This document shows, piece by piece, positions 54,083-63,509 of a DNA stretch of 64,000 bases. Source of the DNA: Bacteroidota bacterium (GTDB lineage: Bacteria > Bacteroidota > Bacteroidia > Flavobacteriales_D > JABDKJ01); NCBI GenBank assembly GCA_039028335.1, contig JBCCIF010000002.1, positions 12,317 through 76,316 of the forward strand. The letters are read 5' to 3'. Below the pieces are notes generated by a model that saw only the letters and a list, made by a program, of their open reading frames with translations, did not search any database and was not told where the DNA came from. Position numbers and translations under genes: made by a program. Within the stretch, counting starts at the first letter, position 1, and each line of letters starts with the position of its first letter.

Positions 54083-54109
54083 CCCGTTTCAATTGAAACG
54101 GGTTTTTTT
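54083..54109. terminator. bidirectional rho-independent terminator between convergent dnaK and the phosphatase gene
   Basis: cccgtttc-aatt-gaaacggg (8-bp GC-rich stem), flanked by aaaa on the left and ttttttt on the right. The T-tract overlaps the stop codon of the minus-strand gene. Confidence 0.85.
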
Positions 54110-55643
54110 ATGCCACAATTTTAAGTTCAGGAAAAGAAGTTTTTGAATAATCTACACCTGGAATTTCAAATCCTGCGACCAAAACATCATCTACTTGTTC
54201 TTCTTCTCGCTGCCAATGATGAAATTCGTAATTAAACAGATAACGTTGATCTTCCATTCTCAAATCCTGTGATTGACTCACAAATTCTCTGAACCTTTTT
54301 GTCATGTATTTCTTTCCTTTTTCACCACCGAATTGATCGCAATAGCCATCTGTATAAAAATAATAGCGGTCCCCTGGTTCTACATTTACAAGTCGATTCT
54401 CAAAAGTCTTTTCCTTATCGAGTATTCCACCAATTGAATATTTATTTCCAGGAATTATCTCCAAGTCTCCTTTTCTTACTTTAATCATTGGACGCATTGC
54501 CCCTGCATATTCAATGGTATTGTCTTTTCTGCTCATTCGGCACATAGAAATGTCCATTCCTTCAGGGATATCGTATTTTTTATGATTGATCGAACGCTCT
54601 AATCGGACGTCTAATTCATGTAAAATTTCAGCAGGAGAGATATTCTCACTCCCTTTAATGATATCTCTCAAAATTGCCTGTCCAAGCATCGTCACCATCG
54701 CTCCTGGCACTCCATGTCCAGTGCAGTCGGCTATTGCAAAATAAGATATATCGCCAATAGTATAGTACCAGAAGAAGTCACCACTGACAATATCTTTCGG
54801 CTTGTAGACCACGAAAAAATCTGGAAATTCTTTTTGAATTTTCTTGTATGGTGGAAGTATCGATTCTTGTATTCTCTTGGCACTTTTAATACTAGCAATA
54901 ATATTCTTGTTCTTGTTCTCAATCAGCATATTGTGAAGAGCCATTTTCTTTTTGGTCTTGATCTCTTTTCGTATGATTCGCACCATTAATAAATACAATA
55001 GAAAAGATGCCAATACTAAAAATCCGCCTATAACCCATGTCTTTTGCAGAGCTGCTTCCTGTGCACTTTTTATGAATGGAGTAAATGGAGTATCTACCTG
55101 AATGATGGCTCTAGATTCTCCATGATCATTTATAGGAGCAAAAGCAGAAATCCAAATTCCATTTTCAGTCTCGTATTTGTCAATTGTTCCACCAATATGA
55201 ATTTCATCTCTTTGCCGTTCATTAAATTTCTTCCACTTATGTCTAAAGTATGGCCGCACTCCTGAGGTAACGACAAAGCTAAAGCTCTGTTCCTTTTCAC
55301 TAAAGACTGCCGTATAAATATCTGTTGGTAGATTATTGGTTTGCTTAACGGTCTTTAAAATTTCATGAATTTTTTGGTAGGTTTCGTCTTGATCAGAGGT
55401 TTTTATATCGTCTTTCTTTTTGTTCTCTTCGTATAATGCAGAATGCTGTTCTCCATCAATTTGGCAAGCTACTGTTTTCGCTATGACCAATAATCTGGAC
55501 TTTTCTTGCTTTTCGAAAATTTCAATTGTTCTGAGATAATCGTAATAAGTAAAGAATGCCGTGAAAAGAATCAATGCAAAGAGTAGAAGCATTAATGCTC
55601 TAGAAATACTATTACTAAATATCTCTTTGAGATATAAAGGCAT
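54108..55643 (-). CDS. membrane sensor PP2C-type (SpoIIE family) protein phosphatase
   Basis: 511 aa with two TM segments bracketing a ~170-aa extracytoplasmic region. The C-terminal PP2C/SpoIIE domain has SGDFFWY, IADCTGHGVPGAMVTMLG, YFYTDGYCDQFGG and DDVLVAGFE. Confidence 0.85.
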   Translation of the reverse strand: MPLYLKEIFSNSISRALMLLLFALILFTAFFTYYDYLRTIEIFEKQEKSRLLVIAKTVACQIDGEQHSALYEENKKKDDIKTSDQDETYQKIHEILKTVKQTNNLPTDIYTAVFSEKEQSFSFVVTSGVRPYFRHKWKKFNERQRDEIHIGGTIDKYETENGIWISAFAPINDHGESRAIIQVDTPFTPFIKSAQEAALQKTWVIGGFLVLASFLLYLLMVRIIRKEIKTKKKMALHNMLIENKNKNIIASIKSAKRIQESILPPYKKIQKEFPDFFVVYKPKDIVSGDFFWYYTIGDISYFAIADCTGHGVPGAMVTMLGQAILRDIIKGSENISPAEILHELDVRLERSINHKKYDIPEGMDISMCRMSRKDNTIEYAGAMRPMIKVRKGDLEIIPGNKYSIGGILDKEKTFENRLVNVEPGDRYYFYTDGYCDQFGGEKGKKYMTKRFREFVSQSQDLRMEDQRYLFNYEFHHWQREEEQVDDVLVAGFEIPGVDYSKTSFPELKIVA

Positions 55644-55772: not shown

Positions 55773-58040
55773 ATGAAAGAGAAAAAGCTTAGAAAAATTG
55801 CATTTACGGTCATAGGTAGTATAGCGGCTTTGACCGTTTTTTTTTGCTTCCAAATTACAGATAAACTAACGACCAATTACGACTTTGAGAAGTTCTTCCC
55901 GCAGAATGATCCCGAAACCGATTTCTTTCTTGAATTTCGCGACAAATTTGAAACAGACAACGACTTTGTCCTTATTGGAATTGGGAATGATAATGGAATT
56001 TTTGATGCTGAATTTCTATTTGACATTGATCGATTTTCAAACGCGCTTGCTCGACTCAAATTTGTAACGGATGTAAAGAGTCCAACAAATATCGAATTAC
56101 CTATAATTTCAGGTGGAGTGCCTTATGATGTTCCAATACTCAATTTTCAAAAAGAAGAAAAGTACAGCTCGGACTCAACAAAAATCTTTAATTCACCAGA
56201 ATTGTTGAACAACTTCTTTTCTGAAGACGGAAAGCATCTCTCAATTCTGGTTAGTCATGAACAATACCTTTCAAAACAGAGATGTGATAGTTTAAGCATG
56301 TCTTTGCAAGATTGTGTATCTGATTTCGGTTTTGATGAAATACATTTGGCAGGAAGAGCCGTAGGGCAGCGCTATTTCGTAGAGCGAATAGAAATGGAGT
56401 TGATCACCTTTGTATCTATCTCCATTGTACTTATAACTCTTTTTCTGGTCATTGCTTTTCGCAGTAAATGGGGCGTAGCGGTTCCCCTGACAGTTGTTCT
56501 TTTAGCTGTTATTTGGTTGGTAGGGATTATGGTTATGTTCGGCAAAGCATTCGACATTTTGCTCACTATTGTTCCTACAATACTATTTGTTGTTGGAATG
56601 AGTGATGTCGTTCATATCGTATCCAAATACTTCGATGAACTCCGCTTGGGTCGCGAAAAATTGGTAGCACTTAAAACGGCCTTTAAAGAAATTGGCATTG
56701 CCACATTCTTAACCTCAATTACGACAGCAATTGGGTTTTTAACCCTTCTATCATCGAGTATTATACCCCTAAGGGAATTTGGAATTATAGCAGCAACCGG
56801 AGTCTTTGTAGCCTATATTCTAGCCTACACCTTATTACCTGCAGTCTTACTATTAAGCAAAAAACCAAAGGTTTCTGATAAGAAGCCTCTAGAAGTCTTT
56901 TGGACGCGAAAATTACATGGCTTTTTACTTTGGACAATTCGCAATAAGAAAAAAGTTCTTATCGGATCACTTGGGGTCTTGGCCCTTTGTATCCTGGGAA
57001 TTTCAAAAATTGAAGTCAATAATTATTTGCTTGAAGATTTAAGGGAAAATGATCCTTTGAAGAAGGATTTCATGTACTTCGAAAACACTTTTGCCGGTGT
57101 ACGCCCTTTTGAAATGCACATTAACGTAATTGATAAGAACAAGAGCATATTCCACCCTCAAGTACTTCATGAAATTGAATTGATTGAAGACTATTTGTAT
57201 TCTGATTATGAAATAGGTTTTATAGCCTCTCCAGTTTCGGCAATAAAAATGATAAATAAAGCCAATCACAGAGGCATTCAAGAATTTTATAAGTTACCGG
57301 ATGATTACGAGCAATTGGACAAAGTTTCTAAGCAATTGTCGCGATTCGCGAAGAGTAAGCAAATGCGCGCTCTGATTACCGAAGATCAAAGTGAAGGAAG
57401 ACTATTCGGCAAGATGGGTGATTGGGGTGCAAAGGAGATCAAAAGACGTAATGAAGGACTTGATAACTTTATTAATCAGAATATAAATACCCAGCTTATT
57501 CAAGTCAGACAAACGGGCACGGCTCGATTGATAGACCTAAATAATGAGCTGCTATCAGCAACGATGATTCAAGGATTAGTCATTGCGTTCTTGGCCATTG
57601 CCTTAATCGTAGGATTAATGTTTAAGTCGTTCAAAATGATTTTAATCAGTTTTGTTCCGAATGTATTTCCGTTACTTCTCGTAGCTGCCTTTATGGGCTT
57701 TACAGGAATTGACCTTAAAGTATCAACAGCGATTATTTTTACCATTGCCTTTGGTATCGCGGTCGATGATACCATACACTTCTTGAGCAAATTGCGGCTT
57801 GAGTTAGGAAAAGGACGATCAGAGCTTTACGCTATCAAGAGAACTTTCATAGGCACGGGCAAAGCTATCATCCTCACTTCCTTGATCCTAGTTGCAGGAT
57901 TTTTGTCTTTGATGATCTCTTCCTTTAAAGGGACATTCTATACAGGACTCTTGGTTAGTCTCACCTTATTTTTTGCCGTATTCTCGGACTTGCTTTTATT
58001 GCCCGTTTTGTTGTGGTTGACAAAAAAGAAATCTAGATAG
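55773..58040 (+). CDS. MMPL/RND-superfamily transporter (two sterol-sensing-like 6-TM bundles)
   Basis: 755 aa with duplicated TM clusters, each preceded by a soluble loop. Contains GMSDVVHIVSKY and GIAVDDTIHFLSK motifs. Confidence 0.85.
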   Translation: MKEKKLRKIAFTVIGSIAALTVFFCFQITDKLTTNYDFEKFFPQNDPETDFFLEFRDKFETDNDFVLIGIGNDNGIFDAEFLFDIDRFSNALARLKFVTDVKSPTNIELPIISGGVPYDVPILNFQKEEKYSSDSTKIFNSPELLNNFFSEDGKHLSILVSHEQYLSKQRCDSLSMSLQDCVSDFGFDEIHLAGRAVGQRYFVERIEMELITFVSISIVLITLFLVIAFRSKWGVAVPLTVVLLAVIWLVGIMVMFGKAFDILLTIVPTILFVVGMSDVVHIVSKYFDELRLGREKLVALKTAFKEIGIATFLTSITTAIGFLTLLSSSIIPLREFGIIAATGVFVAYILAYTLLPAVLLLSKKPKVSDKKPLEVFWTRKLHGFLLWTIRNKKKVLIGSLGVLALCILGISKIEVNNYLLEDLRENDPLKKDFMYFENTFAGVRPFEMHINVIDKNKSIFHPQVLHEIELIEDYLYSDYEIGFIASPVSAIKMINKANHRGIQEFYKLPDDYEQLDKVSKQLSRFAKSKQMRALITEDQSEGRLFGKMGDWGAKEIKRRNEGLDNFINQNINTQLIQVRQTGTARLIDLNNELLSATMIQGLVIAFLAIALIVGLMFKSFKMILISFVPNVFPLLLVAAFMGFTGIDLKVSTAIIFTIAFGIAVDDTIHFLSKLRLELGKGRSELYAIKRTFIGTGKAIILTSLILVAGFLSLMISSFKGTFYTGLLVSLTLFFAVFSDLLLLPVLLWLTKKKSR

Positions 58041-59520
58041 TTTCTTTTTGAACTAGAGCCTTAATTTTTATTCCGAGGTAGGCAAAAGCAACGGTCATGA
58101 ATGGACTTACAATATTAAAAATACAATAAGGTGCAAATGTCCATACACTCATTCCAAGTATTCCAGCTTGTGTTGCTCCACAGGTGTTCCATGGAATTAA
58201 AACCGAAGTCACCGTTCCAGCATCTTCCAAGGTTCGACTTAAATTTTCAGGAGCCAAGCCCTTATCCTTGAAAGCATCTCCAAACATCTTTCCAGGAACA
58301 ACAATGGCCACATATTGATCGGAAGCGGTGGCATTAAAAAATAAACATGTACCAGCAGTTCTTAACACCAAGGACCCCGTTGATCGCACTCTCGCCAACA
58401 AAACTTGCGTAATTTTGCGAAGCAACCCTGCAGATTGCATTGCACCACCGAAAATCATCGCACATAGTATTAACCAAACCGTATTAAGCATTCCTTCCAT
58501 GCCTCCAGCCTTAAGCAAGTTCGATCGGTCTTCAATAGGAATATTAAATATCTCATTTATCCGATCATTTTCTGATTGAAAATAATCAGTTGTGTTTAAC
58601 GCCATGGATTCTATACTTGCTTTGTAGGCATCCTCAATATAATTTCCAGATTCACTGATTCTTGAAACGATTTCAGGTTGCGTAATTGCTGCAGCAATTG
58701 CACCTAATAAAACACCAATCAATAATGCAGGAATAGCAGGCATTTTCTTGATTATCAAAATAATTACAGCTATTGGAACAAGAAACAAAAGCAGGTTAGT
58801 ATTGAAGGCCTTGGAAATAACCATTTGCATTTCATCGATTTGATTTTGGTCTGCTCCTCCTTCAAATAAAAAACCCGCTATTAAGAATACAATCAACGCA
58901 AGACTAATTGAAGGGACCGTAGTATAAAGCATATATCTGATATGTGTAATTAAATCAGTTCCCGCAACTGCAGGCGCTAAATTGGTTGTATCAGATAATG
59001 GCGACATTTTGTCACCAAAATAGGCCCCAGATATGATAGCACCTCCTATCCAGCCAGGATGAATACCTAAAGCTATTCCTATTCCCAATAAAGCCACACC
59101 TACGGTAGCTACAGTACTCCACGAACTGCCTGTAGCCAAGGATACTATGGCACAAATTATACATGTAGCGAAGAGGAAGATTTTTGGACTCAAAATATTC
59201 AACCCATAATAAATCATTGTAGGAACTATTCCACTGATTAACCAAGTACCTGCTAAGGCACCAATTAGCAATAAGATTATTAAAGCAGGCATCGCTGTTG
59301 AAATACTATCTACAATCTCTTGCATAATGGTTTTCCAAGAGATTTTATGATAAAAAGCTACACAAGCTGCAGCACCAGCTGCCAATAAAAGTGCAATTTG
59401 ATTTGGACCATAGGATGAGTCTCCTCCAAAGTAGATTACATTTATAGCCAATAGGCCAATAAGAAGGAGGATGGGAATAAAGGCTTGAAACAAGCTTACC
59501 TTAGGTTGTTGTTCTGGCAT
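58033..59520 (-). CDS. nhaC: Na+/H+ antiporter NhaC family protein
   Basis: 495 aa, ~11-12 TM, with GAYFGDKMSPLSDTTNLAPAVAGTDL and IPWNTCGATQAG blocks. Confidence 0.9.
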   Translation of the reverse strand: MPEQQPKVSLFQAFIPILLLIGLLAINVIYFGGDSSYGPNQIALLLAAGAAACVAFYHKISWKTIMQEIVDSISTAMPALIILLLIGALAGTWLISGIVPTMIYYGLNILSPKIFLFATCIICAIVSLATGSSWSTVATVGVALLGIGIALGIHPGWIGGAIISGAYFGDKMSPLSDTTNLAPAVAGTDLITHIRYMLYTTVPSISLALIVFLIAGFLFEGGADQNQIDEMQMVISKAFNTNLLLFLVPIAVIILIIKKMPAIPALLIGVLLGAIAAAITQPEIVSRISESGNYIEDAYKASIESMALNTTDYFQSENDRINEIFNIPIEDRSNLLKAGGMEGMLNTVWLILCAMIFGGAMQSAGLLRKITQVLLARVRSTGSLVLRTAGTCLFFNATASDQYVAIVVPGKMFGDAFKDKGLAPENLSRTLEDAGTVTSVLIPWNTCGATQAGILGMSVWTFAPYCIFNIVSPFMTVAFAYLGIKIKALVQKETI

Positions 59521-59577
59521 ATAAAATTTCTATTCTCTAAATATAGAAAAGAAGAGCACTTATATTTGTCTGCGAAG

Positions 59578-60132
59578 ATGAAAGTCCATTATTTCCTGTA
59601 CATACTTATTTTATTGAATTCCTGCTCAAATCGGCCGAACTGGAAAGAATTAGAACTGGAAAATTTGAAAGGAAACAAAATCGTTCTTTCAGAGAATGAA
59701 GGACCACTTGTTCTTTTCTTTCTTTCACCTGAATGTCCACTTTGCGAAAATTACGCCCTGAATATGCGAGAACATTTCGAAGATGCATCCTTAAAAAGCA
59801 TGGCATTTTATGGCATTTTTCCTGGTGAATACTATTCTAAAAAGCAGATCTTGAAATACAAAAAAGTGTATGATTTGAAAATGGAATTTCTATTAGATCC
59901 TGATTATTCTTTGACACATTCCTTAAGCGCCACTGTAACACCGGAAGTTTTTCTTTTTAATGAAAAGAAAGAATTAGTTTATGAAGGAGCCATAGACAAT
60001 TGGATGATGAGTTTAGGTAAAAAGAGAACAGTCATTACTGAACATTATCTGAAAGATGCCTTTAAAGCGATGAAAAATAATCGCATTCCAGATACGACTA
60101 AAACTACTCCAATCGGATGCTATATCGAATAG
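59578..60132 (+). CDS. thioredoxin-fold (TlpA/redoxin-like) lipoprotein with CxxC
   Basis: ATG 59578 gives MKVHYFLYILILLNSC (lipobox). The active-site-like motif is FFLSPECPLCENY. It overlaps the downstream gene by 16 nt. Confidence 0.7.
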   Translation: MKVHYFLYILILLNSCSNRPNWKELELENLKGNKIVLSENEGPLVLFFLSPECPLCENYALNMREHFEDASLKSMAFYGIFPGEYYSKKQILKYKKVYDLKMEFLLDPDYSLTHSLSATVTPEVFLFNEKKELVYEGAIDNWMMSLGKKRTVITEHYLKDAFKAMKNNRIPDTTKTTPIGCYIE

Positions 60133-61511
60133 GATTACTAAGCTTTATTTTGATCTTTACTTTTTCTTGTCAAGAAAAAAAAGAAAAGCGCATACCTTTT
60201 TCTGAGGTCAAAGAAATTGTTCATAGAAATTGTTTCGGTTGTCATCATCCAGGTGGGGCAGCACCTTTCACCTTATATACACATGACCAAATAAAACGCA
60301 AAGCAAATACGATCAAAGATGTGGTTGAGAATGGCGTAATGCCTCCATGGCCTGCCAATTCAAATTACACCCATTTTATTGACGAAAAAAAGCTGACCTC
60401 AATTGAAAAAAATGCATTGATTAAATGGATTGAACAAGGAGCTCAGAATAATGAGGTTGAAAAGAAAACAGAAATTGAAGGCCAAGGGGCAGAAGAAAAA
60501 TGGATGGAAAATATTGCTGTTGACCTCTATTCTGAAACAAAACATGTTCAACGCTTCGAAATGATTTCACCTATCGAACTAGCAGGAGACAACAGGGATA
60601 AATTCTATTATGTAAAGATTCCGGTAGAACTTGAAAAAGACACCTTCATCAAGTCCGTTTCTTTCATTCCAGGCAACCGAGAACGCGTGCATCATATGAA
60701 TGGACATTGGTTGAATTATGATTATACTAAAAAAGAGAAACTAGCTGAAGGAAAAAGCTATGTGAACGCTGAAGAAAATACAGATCTGCGCAAATTTTTG
60801 GAATTGGGCATTGAACAAGATGATGGTTCTTTTCCAGAATTAAAACCCTCGGTGGTCAACTACCTACCAGGAATGAACGCTTTACATTATCCAGATGGAA
60901 TAGGAGGATTCAAAGCGAATAGAAAATCTACTTTGCTGATTCAATCAATTCATTACGGACCTAACTCGAAAGATAGTAAGGATCAATCTTCGGTTGAAAT
61001 AGAGTTTATGGATAAGGCTCCAAATAGACCTCTATTGGAAATGCAATTGGGAAGTTTAGGAATTTCTCCTATTGAACCGGCATTTGTTCTAGAACCAGAA
61101 AGCAAGAATTCGTTTCGAACACAATGGACAACTGATAAAAATCTTTCCCTTTTAACCATAATACCTCACATGCATTTGCTCGGCACAAAATTCAAAGCCT
61201 ATGCCCTTTCACCCCAAAATGACACCATCCGTTTAATCAAAATTGATCGATGGGACTTTCGTTGGCAATATCACTATACCTTTCCTAAAATTAAGGTAAT
61301 TCCCAAAGGCTATACCATTGTCGCAGAAGCAGAATTTGACAATACATCCGAAAACCCCAATCAAGCTTTCTTTCCTCCAAAGCGAATTGTGGAGCCTCTG
61401 AGTCTGAACATGAAAACAACCGATGAAATGTTTCAATTAATTCTCATGTATATTGATCATCAAGATGGAGATGAAAACATTTCTTTGGAGCTACAAAACG
61501 GTGCTAATTGA
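60117..61511 (+). CDS. lipoprotein fusing a c-type cytochrome domain (CFGCH) to a PHM/DBH-like type-II copper monooxygenase domain
   Basis: 464 aa with lipobox FTFSC and heme motif C39-F-G-C42-H43 (nt 60231-60245). Candidate copper ligands are in PHM order: H192-H193, H279, H351-x-H353 (IIPHMHLLG) and M438 in TTDEMF. Confidence 0.65.
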   Translation: MLYRIGLLSFILIFTFSCQEKKEKRIPFSEVKEIVHRNCFGCHHPGGAAPFTLYTHDQIKRKANTIKDVVENGVMPPWPANSNYTHFIDEKKLTSIEKNALIKWIEQGAQNNEVEKKTEIEGQGAEEKWMENIAVDLYSETKHVQRFEMISPIELAGDNRDKFYYVKIPVELEKDTFIKSVSFIPGNRERVHHMNGHWLNYDYTKKEKLAEGKSYVNAEENTDLRKFLELGIEQDDGSFPELKPSVVNYLPGMNALHYPDGIGGFKANRKSTLLIQSIHYGPNSKDSKDQSSVEIEFMDKAPNRPLLEMQLGSLGISPIEPAFVLEPESKNSFRTQWTTDKNLSLLTIIPHMHLLGTKFKAYALSPQNDTIRLIKIDRWDFRWQYHYTFPKIKVIPKGYTIVAEAEFDNTSENPNQAFFPPKRIVEPLSLNMKTTDEMFQLILMYIDHQDGDENISLELQNGAN

Positions 61512-61534
61512 ACTTTATTTTCGCATTGTATAAA

Positions 61535-61936
61535 ATGAAAAAACCAAAAAAATTCATTCAAGTCCCTCAATATCCAGGCGGTAGGGATGCAATGCGAAAG
61601 TTCATTACTGAAAATCTAAGCTACCCTAAAAAAGCAGGAGAAAACAATATCGAAGGCACGGTCGTTGTGGTCATTGATATAAATGGAGATGGCATTGTTG
61701 AGCGAACGAGACTCAAGAAGAAATTGGGCTATGGTTGCGATGAAGAAGCACAAAGAGTCGCAAAGCTTTTGAAATTTCATCCGACAAAAAATCGTAAAGT
61801 GAGAGTCACCTCACATCGCACGATTAACTTTAGCTTTCGCAAACCAAGGAAAAAAATAGTCAAAAAAGTGATTCCAAAACCTCAAACAAGGAGTATTCAG
61901 GTGGTCTATAATTATGTTCCAAAAAAGAAATCATGA
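61535..61936 (+). CDS. TonB C-terminal domain-containing protein
   Basis: PQYPGGRDAMRKFITENLSYPKKAGENNIEGTVVVVIDINGDGIVERTRLKKKLGYGCDEEAQRV is the TonB_C fold pattern. ATG 61535 is preferred over TTG 61508. Confidence 0.7.
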   Translation: MKKPKKFIQVPQYPGGRDAMRKFITENLSYPKKAGENNIEGTVVVVIDINGDGIVERTRLKKKLGYGCDEEAQRVAKLLKFHPTKNRKVRVTSHRTINFSFRKPRKKIVKKVIPKPQTRSIQVVYNYVPKKKS

Positions 61937-62418
61937 AAGGAGAATTTTTCGAATTTGAAGTAAGATGGTCAGACATAGACGCCAACAGGCATATGGCTAA
62001 TTCGGCTTATGTTGAGCGCTGCATTGATTGCAGAGTGCATTTCTTCAATGTTTCAGGAGTAAGTACGAAAGTGATAAGCAAAGACATTGGACCAGTTATT
62101 TTTCATGAGCATTATTACTTCATCAAAGAAATGCATATGGGCGAGAAGGCTAAGATGAATATGCAATTGAAAGGGAATTCAGAAGACTACAGATTTGTTG
62201 AATTCGAAATCAATTTGTACAAGACAAATGGCGATTTAGCAATGTACTCAACCCTCATTTTTACACTGATGGACTTGAATACGAGAAAGATTGTCACGCC
62301 TACAAAAGACATTATTTCTTTTTATGACGGACTAGAAAAAGCCGAGAACTACAAAGTCTTTGATCCTTCCTATACTCGCGCTAAAGATGTACCTTACGGA
62401 CGCAAGATTTCGTTTTAA
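61933..62418 (+). CDS. acyl-CoA thioesterase (hotdog fold, YbgC/4HBT-like)
   Basis: 161 aa with FEFEVRWSDIDANRHMANSAYV, typical of 4HBT thioesterases. ATGA overlap with the upstream gene. Confidence 0.8.
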   Translation: MKGEFFEFEVRWSDIDANRHMANSAYVERCIDCRVHFFNVSGVSTKVISKDIGPVIFHEHYYFIKEMHMGEKAKMNMQLKGNSEDYRFVEFEINLYKTNGDLAMYSTLIFTLMDLNTRKIVTPTKDIISFYDGLEKAENYKVFDPSYTRAKDVPYGRKISF

Positions 62419-63509
62419 TGAATCAAGATAATCAAAAAGCAACAGCACCATTTTCCTGCTCTTTTAGCCCAAACGTTCCGGAATTAATGAGTCGGTTAAA
62501 TTGCACTTTGGCGATCACTACGTATCAAGCTGGCAAAATCGTTTTCATTTCTCCAAAGAATGAATCAAATTTAGTGCAGCTTCCCAGAACTTTTCCGAAG
62601 CCAATGGGCATAGCCCTGGAAGAACAAGGAGATAAAATGGCCTTGGCTTGCAAAGACGAGATTACGGTATTTAAGAATTCTAAAGCACTCGCTTTTAGTT
62701 ACCCACCTAAACCCAAAGTTTACGACTCACTCTACATGCCGCGATCTAAGTATTATGTTGGCCCGGTGGATATTCATGATCTCATGTGGGGAGATGACGG
62801 CTTATATGCAGTTAACACCTTATTTTCATGCATAGCTAAAATCGGAGAAGATTACAGCTTCACTCCATACTGGAAGCCTCCATTCATAACTGAAATTACT
62901 CCTGAGGATAGATGTCACCTGAATGGAATGGCAATGGTCAATGGCAAACCAAAATTTGCGACAGCATTTTGTCAAGGTAATACTGCAAGAAGCTGGCGAG
63001 ATGTGGTAACAACGGACGGTATATTAATGGATATGGATAGCAATGAAGTGATTGTGCCTAACATTCCTATGCCTCACTCCCCAAGAATATTTAACAATGA
63101 GCTTTTCTTATTGCTCTCAGCAACTGGTGAATTTGTCAAAATTCAAATCAATGAGGGTAAGTATGATGTCATTTGTAATCTAAACGGATTTGTGAGAGGT
63201 ATGGCACACATTGAGGATTATGTCTTCATCGCCATATCTAAGTTGAGAGAAAACTCTTCAACTTTCGCGAAACTAGACATAGCCGGAAAAAGTAAAAATG
63301 CCAAAATTATGATCGTCCATCTACCAACAGGAAGCGTGCAAGGTGAGATCACCTATCATACCTCTGTTGATGAGATTTACGATATCCAAATCTTACCGAA
63401 TAAAATTCGTCCCAATATCATGAATAGCGCCAAAGAAGATCATAAGTTAGGTGTCGTGCTCCCGGAAAGCACCTATTGGGCGAAGCAAAACGAAGAAGCA
63501 AAAAATTAA
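62418..63509 (+). CDS. TIGR03032/DUF4915-like uncharacterised protein
   Basis: 363 aa. The EDRCHLNGMAMVNGKPKFATA block is as I recall it for the TIGR03032 family. Predicted beta-propeller-like. Confidence 0.5.
   Translation: MNQDNQKATAPFSCSFSPNVPELMSRLNCTLAITTYQAGKIVFISPKNESNLVQLPRTFPKPMGIALEEQGDKMALACKDEITVFKNSKALAFSYPPKPKVYDSLYMPRSKYYVGPVDIHDLMWGDDGLYAVNTLFSCIAKIGEDYSFTPYWKPPFITEITPEDRCHLNGMAMVNGKPKFATAFCQGNTARSWRDVVTTDGILMDMDSNEVIVPNIPMPHSPRIFNNELFLLLSATGEFVKIQINEGKYDVICNLNGFVRGMAHIEDYVFIAISKLRENSSTFAKLDIAGKSKNAKIMIVHLPTGSVQGEITYHTSVDEIYDIQILPNKIRPNIMNSAKEDHKLGVVLPESTYWAKQNEEAKN

What the first reader, a model, noticed from the sequence alone, without database searches (positions are those of the whole stretch)
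59578..61511. Cytochrome-c domain fused to a PHM/DBH-like copper monooxygenase, translationally coupled to a CxxC thioredoxin-fold lipoprotein
The 464-aa lipoprotein has one heme-c attachment motif (CFGCH, nt 60231-60245) in its N-terminal ~110 aa. This is followed by a domain with the full ordered ligand set of peptidylglycine alpha-hydroxylating monooxygenase and dopamine beta-hydroxylase. The set is HH (192-193) and H279 for the electron-transfer copper, and H351-x-H353 plus Met438 (in T-x-x-E-M, as in PHM) for the catalytic copper. Eukaryotic PHM and DBH receive electrons from ascorbate. A covalently fused c-type cytochrome suggests a built-in periplasmic electron donor instead. The upstream gene, which overlaps by 16 nt, is a TlpA-like lipoprotein with CPLC that could keep heme-attachment or copper-site thiols reduced. 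I am not aware of a characterised substrate for bacterial enzymes with this architecture.
Basis: partly seen in the sequence, partly recalled or inferred. Interest (0 to 1): 0.6.

Follow-up and report, generated by a model that had tools for sequence, protein, structure and literature searches.

The report
Cytochrome-c-fused bacterial PHM-like copper monooxygenase
A Bacteroidota lipoprotein joins a heme-c cytochrome to a copper enzyme core of the type animals use to make amidated peptide hormones and noradrenaline; it has a dedicated thioredoxin-fold partner and belongs to a large bacterial family that I could not find characterised.

Summary
ORF 60117-61511 encodes a 464-aa lipoprotein. It has a c-type cytochrome domain (CxxCH, invariant Met75) and a flexible linker. 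These are followed by a two-domain core whose AlphaFold model matches human DBH and rat PHM (Foldseek E ~1e-12).

A 53-sequence profile aligns to rat PHM at 94% probability (E 1.3e-7). All six copper ligands are in register and invariant, as is the equivalent of PHM Gln272. The PHM peptide-carboxylate residues Arg240 and Tyr318 are not conserved, so this is not a peptide-amidating enzyme. The substrate is unknown.

The upstream redoxin is a real partner:
- It lies directly upstream in 53 of 73 informative genomes, often with the same 16-nt overlap.
- It is fused to the enzyme in one polypeptide in at least 23 protein clusters.

The redoxin is closest to the uncharacterised Prx-like group of PDB 2cvb, not to TlpA/ResA. 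Its conserved pair is Cys53 and C-terminal Cys181.

The wider family has 3,881 representatives at 50% identity clustering. Nearly all carry CxxCH, and one clade is secreted by the type IX system.

No characterisation was found in the literature searched. I rate it a new variant of a known kind and moderately to highly interesting.

The parts
59561..59568 (+). TATATTTG, a match to the Bacteroidota -7 promoter motif TAnnTTTG, 10 nt before the redoxin ATG
   Evidence: The motif is not enriched in the window (47 found, about 71 expected), so this is weak, position-based evidence only. That the motif is a promoter element is my own knowledge.
59578..60132 (+). Thioredoxin-fold (Prx-like/TlpA-like) lipoprotein, 184 aa. 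Lipobox Cys16. CPLC at nt 59734-59745 (Cys53, Cys56). Cis-Pro122. C-terminal IGCYIE with Cys181 (nt 60118-60120).
   Evidence: Pfam AhpC-TSA 43.6 bits and Redoxin 28.3 bits. Best solved relatives are 2cvb (E 2.8e-7), 3u5r and 2ywi, which share the IGC motif. Invariant residues are C53, P54, P122, Y135, G137, G180 and C181; C56 is present in only 46/54.
60117..60132 (+). 16-nt overlap of the two genes. The monooxygenase ATG (60117-60119) lies inside the Gly-Cys codons GGA TGC of the redoxin's invariant C-terminal motif.
   Evidence: The same offset (-15) occurs in 22 of 53 adjacent pairs, and 41 of 53 pairs overlap.
60117..61511 (+). Whole gene for the 464-aa cytochrome c / PHM-DBH-like copper monooxygenase lipoprotein
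60117..60170 (+). Signal peptide with lipobox (FTFS-C18)
   Evidence: Read from the sequence. C18 is invariant and usually preceded by S/A/G in 39 homologues.
60189..60446 (+). c-type cytochrome domain (about aa 25-110). CFGCH at nt 60231-60245. Candidate axial Met75 (nt 60339-60341) in the invariant MPPWPA motif.
   Evidence: Haem_bd PF14376 E 1.4e-6 and Cytochrome_CBB3 E 1.2e-4. 37/39 homologues hit Cytochrome_CBB3 and 30/39 hit Haem_bd. C39, C42, H43 and M75-A80 are invariant.
60447..60542 (+). Flexible linker (about aa 111-142), longer here than in most homologues
   Evidence: pLDDT is below 50 at aa 117-123 and 135-140. There is an alignment gap in most homologues at this point.
60543..61016 (+). 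N-terminal beta-sandwich of the catalytic core with the CuH-type ligands H192 and H193 (nt 60690-60695) and H279 (nt 60951-60953)
   Evidence: These align with PHM H107, H108 and H172. They are invariant in 53/53. Relatives hit PF01082 above its cut-off (P0178 42.1 bits, P0266 37.1 bits).
61017..61508 (+). C-terminal beta-sandwich with the CuM-type ligands H351 (nt 61167-61169), H353 (nt 61173-61175) and M438 (nt 61428-61430). Also the family motif WDFRWQ (aa 379-384), whose Q384 aligns with PHM Q272.
   Evidence: PF03712 covers aa 344-413.

Best explanation
The pair 59578-61511 is a two-gene module for a periplasm-facing, lipid-anchored copper monooxygenase of the PHM/DBH (non-coupled two-copper) type. 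The enzyme carries its own c-type cytochrome.

Proposed mechanism:
1. After Sec export and lipidation at Cys18, heme is attached covalently to Cys39/Cys42, with His43 and Met75 as axial ligands.
2. The catalytic core binds an electron-transfer copper at His192/His193/His279. It binds an O2-activating copper at His351/His353/Met438.
3. Bacteria have no ascorbate pool in the periplasm. Electrons therefore come one at a time from periplasmic respiratory carriers, through the tethered heme, to the first copper and on to the second.
4. At the second copper, O2 is activated and a C-H bond of an unidentified substrate is hydroxylated. The substrate is not a glycine-extended peptide.

The upstream thioredoxin-fold lipoprotein is a dedicated partner acting through Cys53 and C-terminal Cys181. 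It most likely works during maturation in the periplasm. It could keep the CxxCH cysteines reduced for heme attachment, or handle copper. It is less likely to take part in each catalytic turnover.

Shown: gene structure, fold, ligand conservation and register, partner linkage, family size.
Inferred: metal and heme occupancy, direction of electron flow, hydroxylase chemistry, and the redoxin's job.
For: - Fold: the AF2 model (pLDDT 87, pTM 0.82) has human DBH 4zel and about 30 rat PHM entries as its top PDB matches. These score E 1e-12 to 1e-8 over about 325 columns, and the next hits are unrelated jelly-rolls.
- Ligands: hhalign of a 53-sequence profile against the rat PHM 1sdw sequence gives 94.1% probability and E 1.3e-7. 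It pairs HH192/193 with H107/108, H279 with H172, H351/353 with H242/244, M438 with M314, and Q384 with Q272.
- Conservation: all six ligands are invariant in 39/39 and 53/53 sequences.
- Transitive Pfam link: all 39 homologues hit PF03712. Divergent relatives hit PF01082 and PF03712 above their gathering scores.
- Heme: CxxCH and MPPWPA are invariant and Haem_bd scores above its cut-off. 101 of 105 full-length family representatives carry CxxCH.
- Partner adjacency: the redoxin is directly upstream on the same strand in 53/73 loci. It is the only co-located gene cluster in 80 loci.
- Partner fusion: the redoxin is fused to the enzyme, with no second signal peptide, in at least 23 clusters of 600-650 aa, on contigs up to 1.57 Mb. 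It also occurs in a 1251-aa protein with two tandem modules.
- Hint of a maturation role: a type-IX-secreted paralogue has the same redoxin, without a secretion tail, directly upstream. The two could therefore meet only in the periplasm.
Against: - There is no biochemical evidence for heme, copper or activity.
- The window protein itself is below Pfam's cut-off for PF03712, and no homologue hits PF01082.
- A sequence HMM against PDB finds nothing.
- The heme-copper distance could not be measured, and the linker is predicted to be flexible.
- No neighbouring gene hints at a substrate.
- 20 of 73 loci, and 3 of 4 type-IX paralogue loci, lack an adjacent redoxin.
- A stable fusion of the redoxin would fit a per-turnover role better than a one-off maturation role.
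- The second Cys of CxxC is dispensable, unlike in ResA or TlpA.
Confidence: 0.65

Rival explanations
1. The redoxin is a working subunit in every catalytic cycle rather than a maturation factor. It could supply two electrons per turnover as a dithiol, recharged through a CcdA/DsbD-type membrane pathway. Alternatively it could destroy peroxide or superoxide that leaks from the O2-activating copper.
For: It is stably fused to the enzyme in the order redoxin, cytochrome, copper core in at least 23 clusters, and in tandem-module proteins of another lineage. Translational coupling implies equal dosage. It hits the AhpC/TSA family. A published view treats the C-terminal Cys of the 2ywi group as a peroxiredoxin-type resolving Cys (PMC3091736).
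Against: There is no invariant Arg or Thr of the peroxiredoxin catalytic triad. I know of no precedent for direct dithiol-to-heme-c transfer without a flavin (own knowledge). A type-IX-secreted paralogue is paired with a redoxin that has no secretion tail, so they could meet only in the periplasm. A quarter of loci lack the redoxin nearby.
Confidence: 0.25
2. The redoxin is a Sco-like copper chaperone. Cys53, Cys56 and Cys181 bind Cu(I) and load the two copper sites.
For: It has a thioredoxin fold like Sco. Two invariant Cys and one semi-conserved Cys could form a two- or three-thiolate Cu(I) site. Copper chaperone domains are often fused to their targets (own knowledge). This is compatible with a periplasm-only encounter for the secreted paralogue.
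Against: The Sco signature CxxxC plus a distal His is absent, and there is no invariant His or Met. The C-terminal IGC motif is shared with relatives that have no known copper link.
Confidence: 0.15
3. The protein keeps the PHM scaffold and metals but is not a C-H hydroxylase. It could be a cytochrome-c-dependent oxidase or reductase acting on a small molecule such as O2, H2O2, nitrite or a thiol. Or it could be a copper-handling protein.
For: No substrate clue comes from gene context. The PHM substrate-binding residues are replaced. The layout of heme, electron-transfer copper and catalytic copper resembles cytochrome-c-fused copper nitrite reductases (own knowledge). Solved PHM structures show nitrite and azide bound (3mib, 3mic).
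Against: The His2Met site, the Q272 equivalent and both domains are strictly conserved across thousands of sequences. This fits the one chemistry known for this fold.
Confidence: 0.12
4. It is a true bacterial peptidylglycine alpha-hydroxylating enzyme that makes amidated peptides.
For: It has the same fold and copper ligands as PHM.
Against: PHM Arg240 and Tyr318, which hold the peptide C-terminal carboxylate, align with Ile349 and Ile442, and Asn316 aligns with Gln440. No lyase (PAL-like) or precursor-peptide gene is conserved nearby. None of PHM's disulfide cysteines is present; the protein has only three Cys.
Confidence: 0.04

Closest known systems
Peptidylglycine alpha-hydroxylating monooxygenase (PHM domain of PAM; PDB 1phm, 1opm, 1sdw)
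   Same: It has the same two beta-sandwich domains. Both copper sites (HH + H, and HxH + M) are in the same order and register. Gln272 has an equivalent, and the DEM motif around the Met ligand is shared.
   Different: Sequence identity is only about 14%. It has no disulfides. The peptide-carboxylate binders Arg240 and Tyr318 are replaced. It has an N-terminal heme-c domain and a lipid anchor, and it is bacterial and periplasmic. It has the extra family motifs WDFxWQ and DN. The reductant is presumably not ascorbate.
Dopamine beta-hydroxylase, tyramine beta-monooxygenase and MOXD1 (PDB 4zel)
   Same: DBH is the top structural match (E 1.5e-12). Like DBH, it has an extra N-terminal domain in front of the copper core.
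   Different: The extra domain here is a c-type cytochrome, not a DOMON domain. There is no dimerisation domain. It scores below Pfam thresholds for PF01082.
Cytochrome-c-fused copper nitrite reductases, and the cellobiose dehydrogenase to LPMO pair (analogies of logic only; own knowledge)
   Same: In both, a tethered heme domain feeds single electrons to a copper active site in an extracytoplasmic compartment.
   Different: The folds and chemistry are unrelated. No homology is claimed or tested.
Prx-like thioredoxin-fold proteins 2cvb (Thermus), 3u5r and 2ywi (Geobacillus); structural-genomics entries of unknown function
   Same: These are the best solved relatives of the redoxin (E 2.8e-7 to 4e-4). 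The alignment runs to the shared C-terminal IGC-x-I motif.
   Different: Those proteins carry C-x-x-C-P, with the second Cys aligned to Cys53. They are not known to be linked to a monooxygenase.
ResA / TlpA / CcmG apocytochrome and Sco reductases
   Same: They share the thioredoxin fold and CxxC and are extracytoplasmic. PDB and NCBIfam matches are weak (ResA E 6e-4 to 0.3; StoA/ResA).
   Different: The second Cys is not conserved, there is an extra invariant C-terminal Cys, and the matches are weaker than to the 2cvb group.

Membership tests
Copper type II ascorbate-dependent monooxygenases (PHM/DBH/TBM; Pfam PF01082 + PF03712) | Two-domain beta-sandwich fold | tested here: met
   Foldseek against PDB puts DBH 4zel and about 30 PHM entries on top, with E 1e-12 to 1e-8 and about 325 aligned columns. 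The model has pLDDT 87.
Copper type II ascorbate-dependent monooxygenases (PHM/DBH/TBM; Pfam PF01082 + PF03712) | CuH ligands: HH plus a distal H, in register with PHM H107/H108/H172 | tested here: met
   hhalign gives 94.1% probability and E 1.3e-7. H192/H193/H279 are invariant in 53/53.
Copper type II ascorbate-dependent monooxygenases (PHM/DBH/TBM; Pfam PF01082 + PF03712) | CuM ligands: HxH plus Met, in register with PHM H242/H244/M314 | tested here: met
   H351/H353/M438 are invariant in 53/53.
Copper type II ascorbate-dependent monooxygenases (PHM/DBH/TBM; Pfam PF01082 + PF03712) | Scores above Pfam gathering thresholds for PF01082 and PF03712 | tested here: not met
   The window protein scores 17.2 bits on PF03712 (cut-off 23) and does not hit PF01082. 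Homologues reach E 2.1e-8 on PF03712. Divergent relatives pass both cut-offs (P0178: 42.1 and 24.1 bits). The link is therefore transitive, not direct.
Copper type II ascorbate-dependent monooxygenases (PHM/DBH/TBM; Pfam PF01082 + PF03712) | Binds two coppers, uses ascorbate, and hydroxylates a C-H bond with O2 | not testable with these tools
   This needs protein chemistry.
PHM proper (peptide amidation) | Residues that bind the peptide C-terminal carboxylate (Arg240, Tyr318, Asn316) | tested here: not met
   They align with Ile349, Ile442 and Gln440.
DBH/TBM/MOXD1 | N-terminal DOMON domain | tested here: not met
   The N-terminal domain hits Haem_bd and Cytochrome_CBB3, with no DOMON hit.
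Class I c-type cytochromes | CxxCH heme attachment motif, a distal Met ligand, and export to the periplasm | tested here: met
   C39, C42, H43 and M75 are invariant. PF14376 scores 28.7 bits against a cut-off of 27. A signal peptide with a lipobox is present in the sequence. Heme incorporation itself is not testable here.
TlpA/ResA-type thiol-disulfide oxidoreductases | Thioredoxin fold with both Cys of CxxC and a cis-Pro conserved | tested here: inconclusive
   The fold and cis-Pro122 are conserved and Cys53 is invariant. Cys56 is Ser/Thr in 8 of 54. ResA matches are weaker than 2cvb matches.
Peroxiredoxins | Peroxidatic Cys with conserved Thr/Ser and Arg (catalytic triad) | tested here: not met
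   There is no invariant Arg or Thr. The position three residues before Cys53 is S/L/D/A.
Sco copper chaperones | CxxxC motif plus a conserved His | tested here: not met
   The motif is CPxC and there is no invariant His.

The most novel reading that the evidence does not exclude
Bacteria have a large, unstudied class of PHM/DBH-type copper monooxygenases that run on a built-in c-type cytochrome instead of ascorbate. These enzymes would be powered by the respiratory chain. They would be matured or assisted by a dedicated thioredoxin-fold partner. They would be deployed both as periplasmic lipoproteins and as type-IX-secreted cell-surface enzymes, acting on substrates unlike any known for this fold, such as envelope components or environmental polymers and small molecules.
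Probability: 0.5. Interest if true: 0.78.

Novelty: new variant of a known kind. Interest (0 to 1): 0.62.

Why it matters
All mechanistic knowledge of non-coupled two-copper monooxygenases comes from a few animal enzymes (PHM, DBH, TBM). Those enzymes need ascorbate and are hard to produce.

A bacterial family of this size would give three things:
- Tractable model enzymes. The family has 3,881 representatives at 50% identity, and at least 578 matches in the species-genome collection.
- A defined intramolecular route from heme to CuH to CuM, on which to test long-debated electron-transfer questions.
- New oxidative chemistry in abundant aquatic and soil Bacteroidota, including possible cell-surface enzymes.

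The redoxin partnership also assigns a first biological context to the 2cvb/2ywi group of solved proteins, whose function is unknown.

Tried and rejected
- Direct sequence searches of PDB, with the protein and with the 39-sequence profile, found only marginal cytochrome hits. The PHM link needed structure prediction and a broader profile.
- hhalign with the narrow profile gave the right register but weak statistics (E 0.002-0.003). It became convincing only after divergent representatives were added.
- Neighbourhood clustering found no conserved gene other than the redoxin. The 29-locus minus-strand cluster is an antisense ORF artefact inside the conserved gene.
- The downstream TonB_C, thioesterase and DUF4915 genes are not conserved with the module.
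- The longer TTG-started ORF from 59485 was rejected. It would overlap the divergent NhaC gene start. The ATG at 59578 gives a normal signal peptide and sits 10 nt after a TAnnTTTG motif.
- Seven literature searches found no paper on bacterial members. The library lacks many subscription papers, so prior work cannot be excluded.
- Peptide amidation, Sco and peroxiredoxin memberships were each tested and not met.
Full report
**1. Observation**

The window carries two same-strand ORFs exactly as described.
- The first is a 184-aa thioredoxin-fold protein at 59578-60132.
- The second is a 464-aa protein at 60117-61511.
- They overlap by 16 nt. The second gene's ATG sits inside the Gly-Cys codons (GGATGC) of the first gene's C-terminal IGCYIE.

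CFGCH is at nt 60231-60245. The protein has only three cysteines: the lipobox Cys18 and the two heme-attachment Cys.

**2. Homologues and conservation**

The protein is identical to a 'hypothetical protein' of a Bacteroidota MAG. It has 2,850 database relatives at E <= 0.001, mostly unnamed or called 'cytochrome c' or 'monooxygenase'.

In 39 relatives that are about 43% identical, the following are invariant:
- C18, C39, C42 and H43;
- the motif M75-PPWPA;
- H192, H193, H279, H351, H353 and M438;
- family motifs such as WDFRWQ (379-384) and D408-N409.

**3. Is it PHM/DBH-like?**

Pfam gives only a sub-threshold PF03712 hit for the window protein. All 39 relatives hit that model, best E 2.1e-8, and none hits the N-domain model PF01082.

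An AlphaFold model built on the alignment is confident (pLDDT 87, pTM 0.82). It has a low-confidence linker at about aa 117-140. Foldseek against PDB returns human DBH and about 30 rat PHM entries as the only strong matches (E 1e-12 to 1e-8, about 325 columns, 13-15% identity).

I took the true rat PHM sequence from PDB.
- hhalign with the narrow family profile put the ligands in register, but weakly (E 0.002-0.003).
- An exhaustive phmmer search with the catalytic part found 3,881 representatives at 50% clustering.
- A 53-sequence profile built from those representatives aligned to PHM with 94.1% probability and E 1.3e-7 over 240 columns.

That alignment pairs the residues as follows:

| Window protein | Rat PHM |
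|---|---|
| HH192/193 | H107/H108 |
| H279 | H172 |
| H351/H353 | H242/H244 |
| M438 | M314 |
| Q384 | Q272 |

All six ligands are 53/53 in that alignment. Divergent relatives pass Pfam's cut-offs for both PF01082 and PF03712, which closes the link transitively.

PHM's carboxylate-binding Arg240 and Tyr318 are replaced by Ile. The enzyme is therefore not a peptide-amidating orthologue.

**4. The heme domain**

Haem_bd scores above its Pfam cut-off. CxxCH and a Met in MPPWPA are invariant. Of 105 full-length family representatives, 101 contain CxxCH. The cytochrome is thus a near-universal part of the bacterial family and not a local accident.

**5. The redoxin partner**

I examined 80 genome loci, nearly all Bacteroidota MAGs of the Flavobacteriales, Cytophagales, Chitinophagales and Sphingobacteriales.
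- The redoxin is directly upstream on the same strand in 53 of 73 loci with enough flank.
- 22 of those pairs show the identical 16-nt overlap, and 41 overlap in some way.
- It is the only gene cluster that travels with the enzyme.

It is also fused to the enzyme. P0134 reads lipobox, redoxin, cytochrome, copper core, with no second signal peptide. This form recurs in at least 23 clusters down to 68% identity, on contigs up to 1.57 Mb. A 1251-aa protein from another lineage holds two such modules in tandem.

The redoxin's closest solved relatives are the uncharacterised 2cvb, 3u5r and 2ywi, which share its C-terminal IGC motif. ResA is a weaker match.

Its invariant residues are C53, P54, cis-P122, Y135, G137, G180 and C181. 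The second Cys of CPLC is Ser/Thr in 8 of 54. A published analysis treats the C-terminal Cys of 2ywi as a resolving Cys (PMC3091736).

The peroxiredoxin triad and the Sco signature are both absent.

**6. Wider family**

A sister clade carries type IX secretion tails, often with Ig or PKD domains, and usually also the cytochrome. One such gene has the same redoxin family directly upstream. Three others do not. The redoxin has no secretion tail, so the two could meet only in the periplasm. This mildly favours a maturation role.

**7. Mechanism**

The best-supported model is a lipid-anchored periplasmic enzyme in which heme c relays single electrons from respiratory carriers to CuH and then to CuM. 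At CuM, O2 is activated to hydroxylate an unknown substrate. The redoxin acts as a dedicated thiol-based helper.

Fold, ligands and linkage are shown. Cofactor occupancy, electron flow, chemistry and the redoxin's role are inferred.

The rivals I considered are:
- a per-turnover redox or peroxide-scavenging subunit;
- a copper chaperone;
- non-hydroxylase chemistry;
- true peptide amidation.

**8. Context in the window**

The downstream TonB_C, thioesterase and DUF4915 genes are same-strand and tightly packed, with no plus-strand terminator predicted. They are not conserved with the module.

**9. Novelty**

Seven literature searches found nothing on bacterial members, and PDB holds no bacterial structure. 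Database pipelines already tag some members as 'copper type II ascorbate-dependent monooxygenase-like', so the domain similarity is not hidden.

I rate it a new variant of a known kind: a cytochrome-c-driven bacterial branch of the PHM/DBH superfamily with an obligate thioredoxin-fold partner.

Noticed in passing
P0134 and P0281-P0302 (proteins); relates to window 59578-61511: A clade of marine Bacteroidota encodes redoxin, cytochrome c and copper core as one 600-650 aa lipoprotein with no second signal peptide. This is a natural fusion of the two window genes.
   Followed up: yes
L086 4001-5593; also P0157, P0167, P0218, P0245, P0271, P0206, P0266, P0279: A sister clade of the enzyme carries type IX secretion C-terminal sorting domains, often with Ig/PKD domains. 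This implies cell-surface heme-copper monooxygenases. One of four loci has the same redoxin upstream.
   Followed up: partly
L087 4001-7756 (P0250, 1251 aa): Two complete redoxin-cytochrome-monooxygenase modules lie in tandem in one ORF, separated by a hydrophobic segment. More redoxin-containing ORFs lie next door. The redoxin motif here is CPLA (a single Cys) plus PGC(L/I)IG. The organism was not identified.
   Followed up: partly
window 60117-60119: The monooxygenase start codon is built from the Gly-Cys codons of the redoxin's invariant C-terminal motif. Protein conservation of one gene therefore fixes the start site of the next. The same offset is seen in 22 of 53 pairs.
   Followed up: yes
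window 61233-61436 (-) and equivalent minus-strand ORFs in 29 loci: An antisense ORF inside the monooxygenase gene recurs across loci only because the sense strand is conserved. It is not a gene.
   Followed up: yes
window 61532-61936, 61933-62418, 62418-63509 (+): Three tightly packed downstream genes: a TonB C-terminal-domain-only protein with no obvious signal peptide, a 4HBT thioesterase, and a DUF4915/TIGR03032 protein (E 1.7e-108). They are probably co-transcribed here but are not conserved with the module.
   Followed up: partly
window 60447-60542 (aa about 111-142): The window protein has a longer, charged linker (EGQGAEEKWMENIA...) than most homologues, predicted with low confidence.
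   Followed up: no
window 54108-55643 (-), 55773-58040 (+), 58033-59520 (-): The upstream neighbours are a 511-aa membrane protein that I did not scan, an MMPL/RND-type transporter, and an NhaC-type Na+/H+ antiporter. The antiporter is transcribed divergently from the redoxin, with only 57 nt between the start codons.
   Followed up: no
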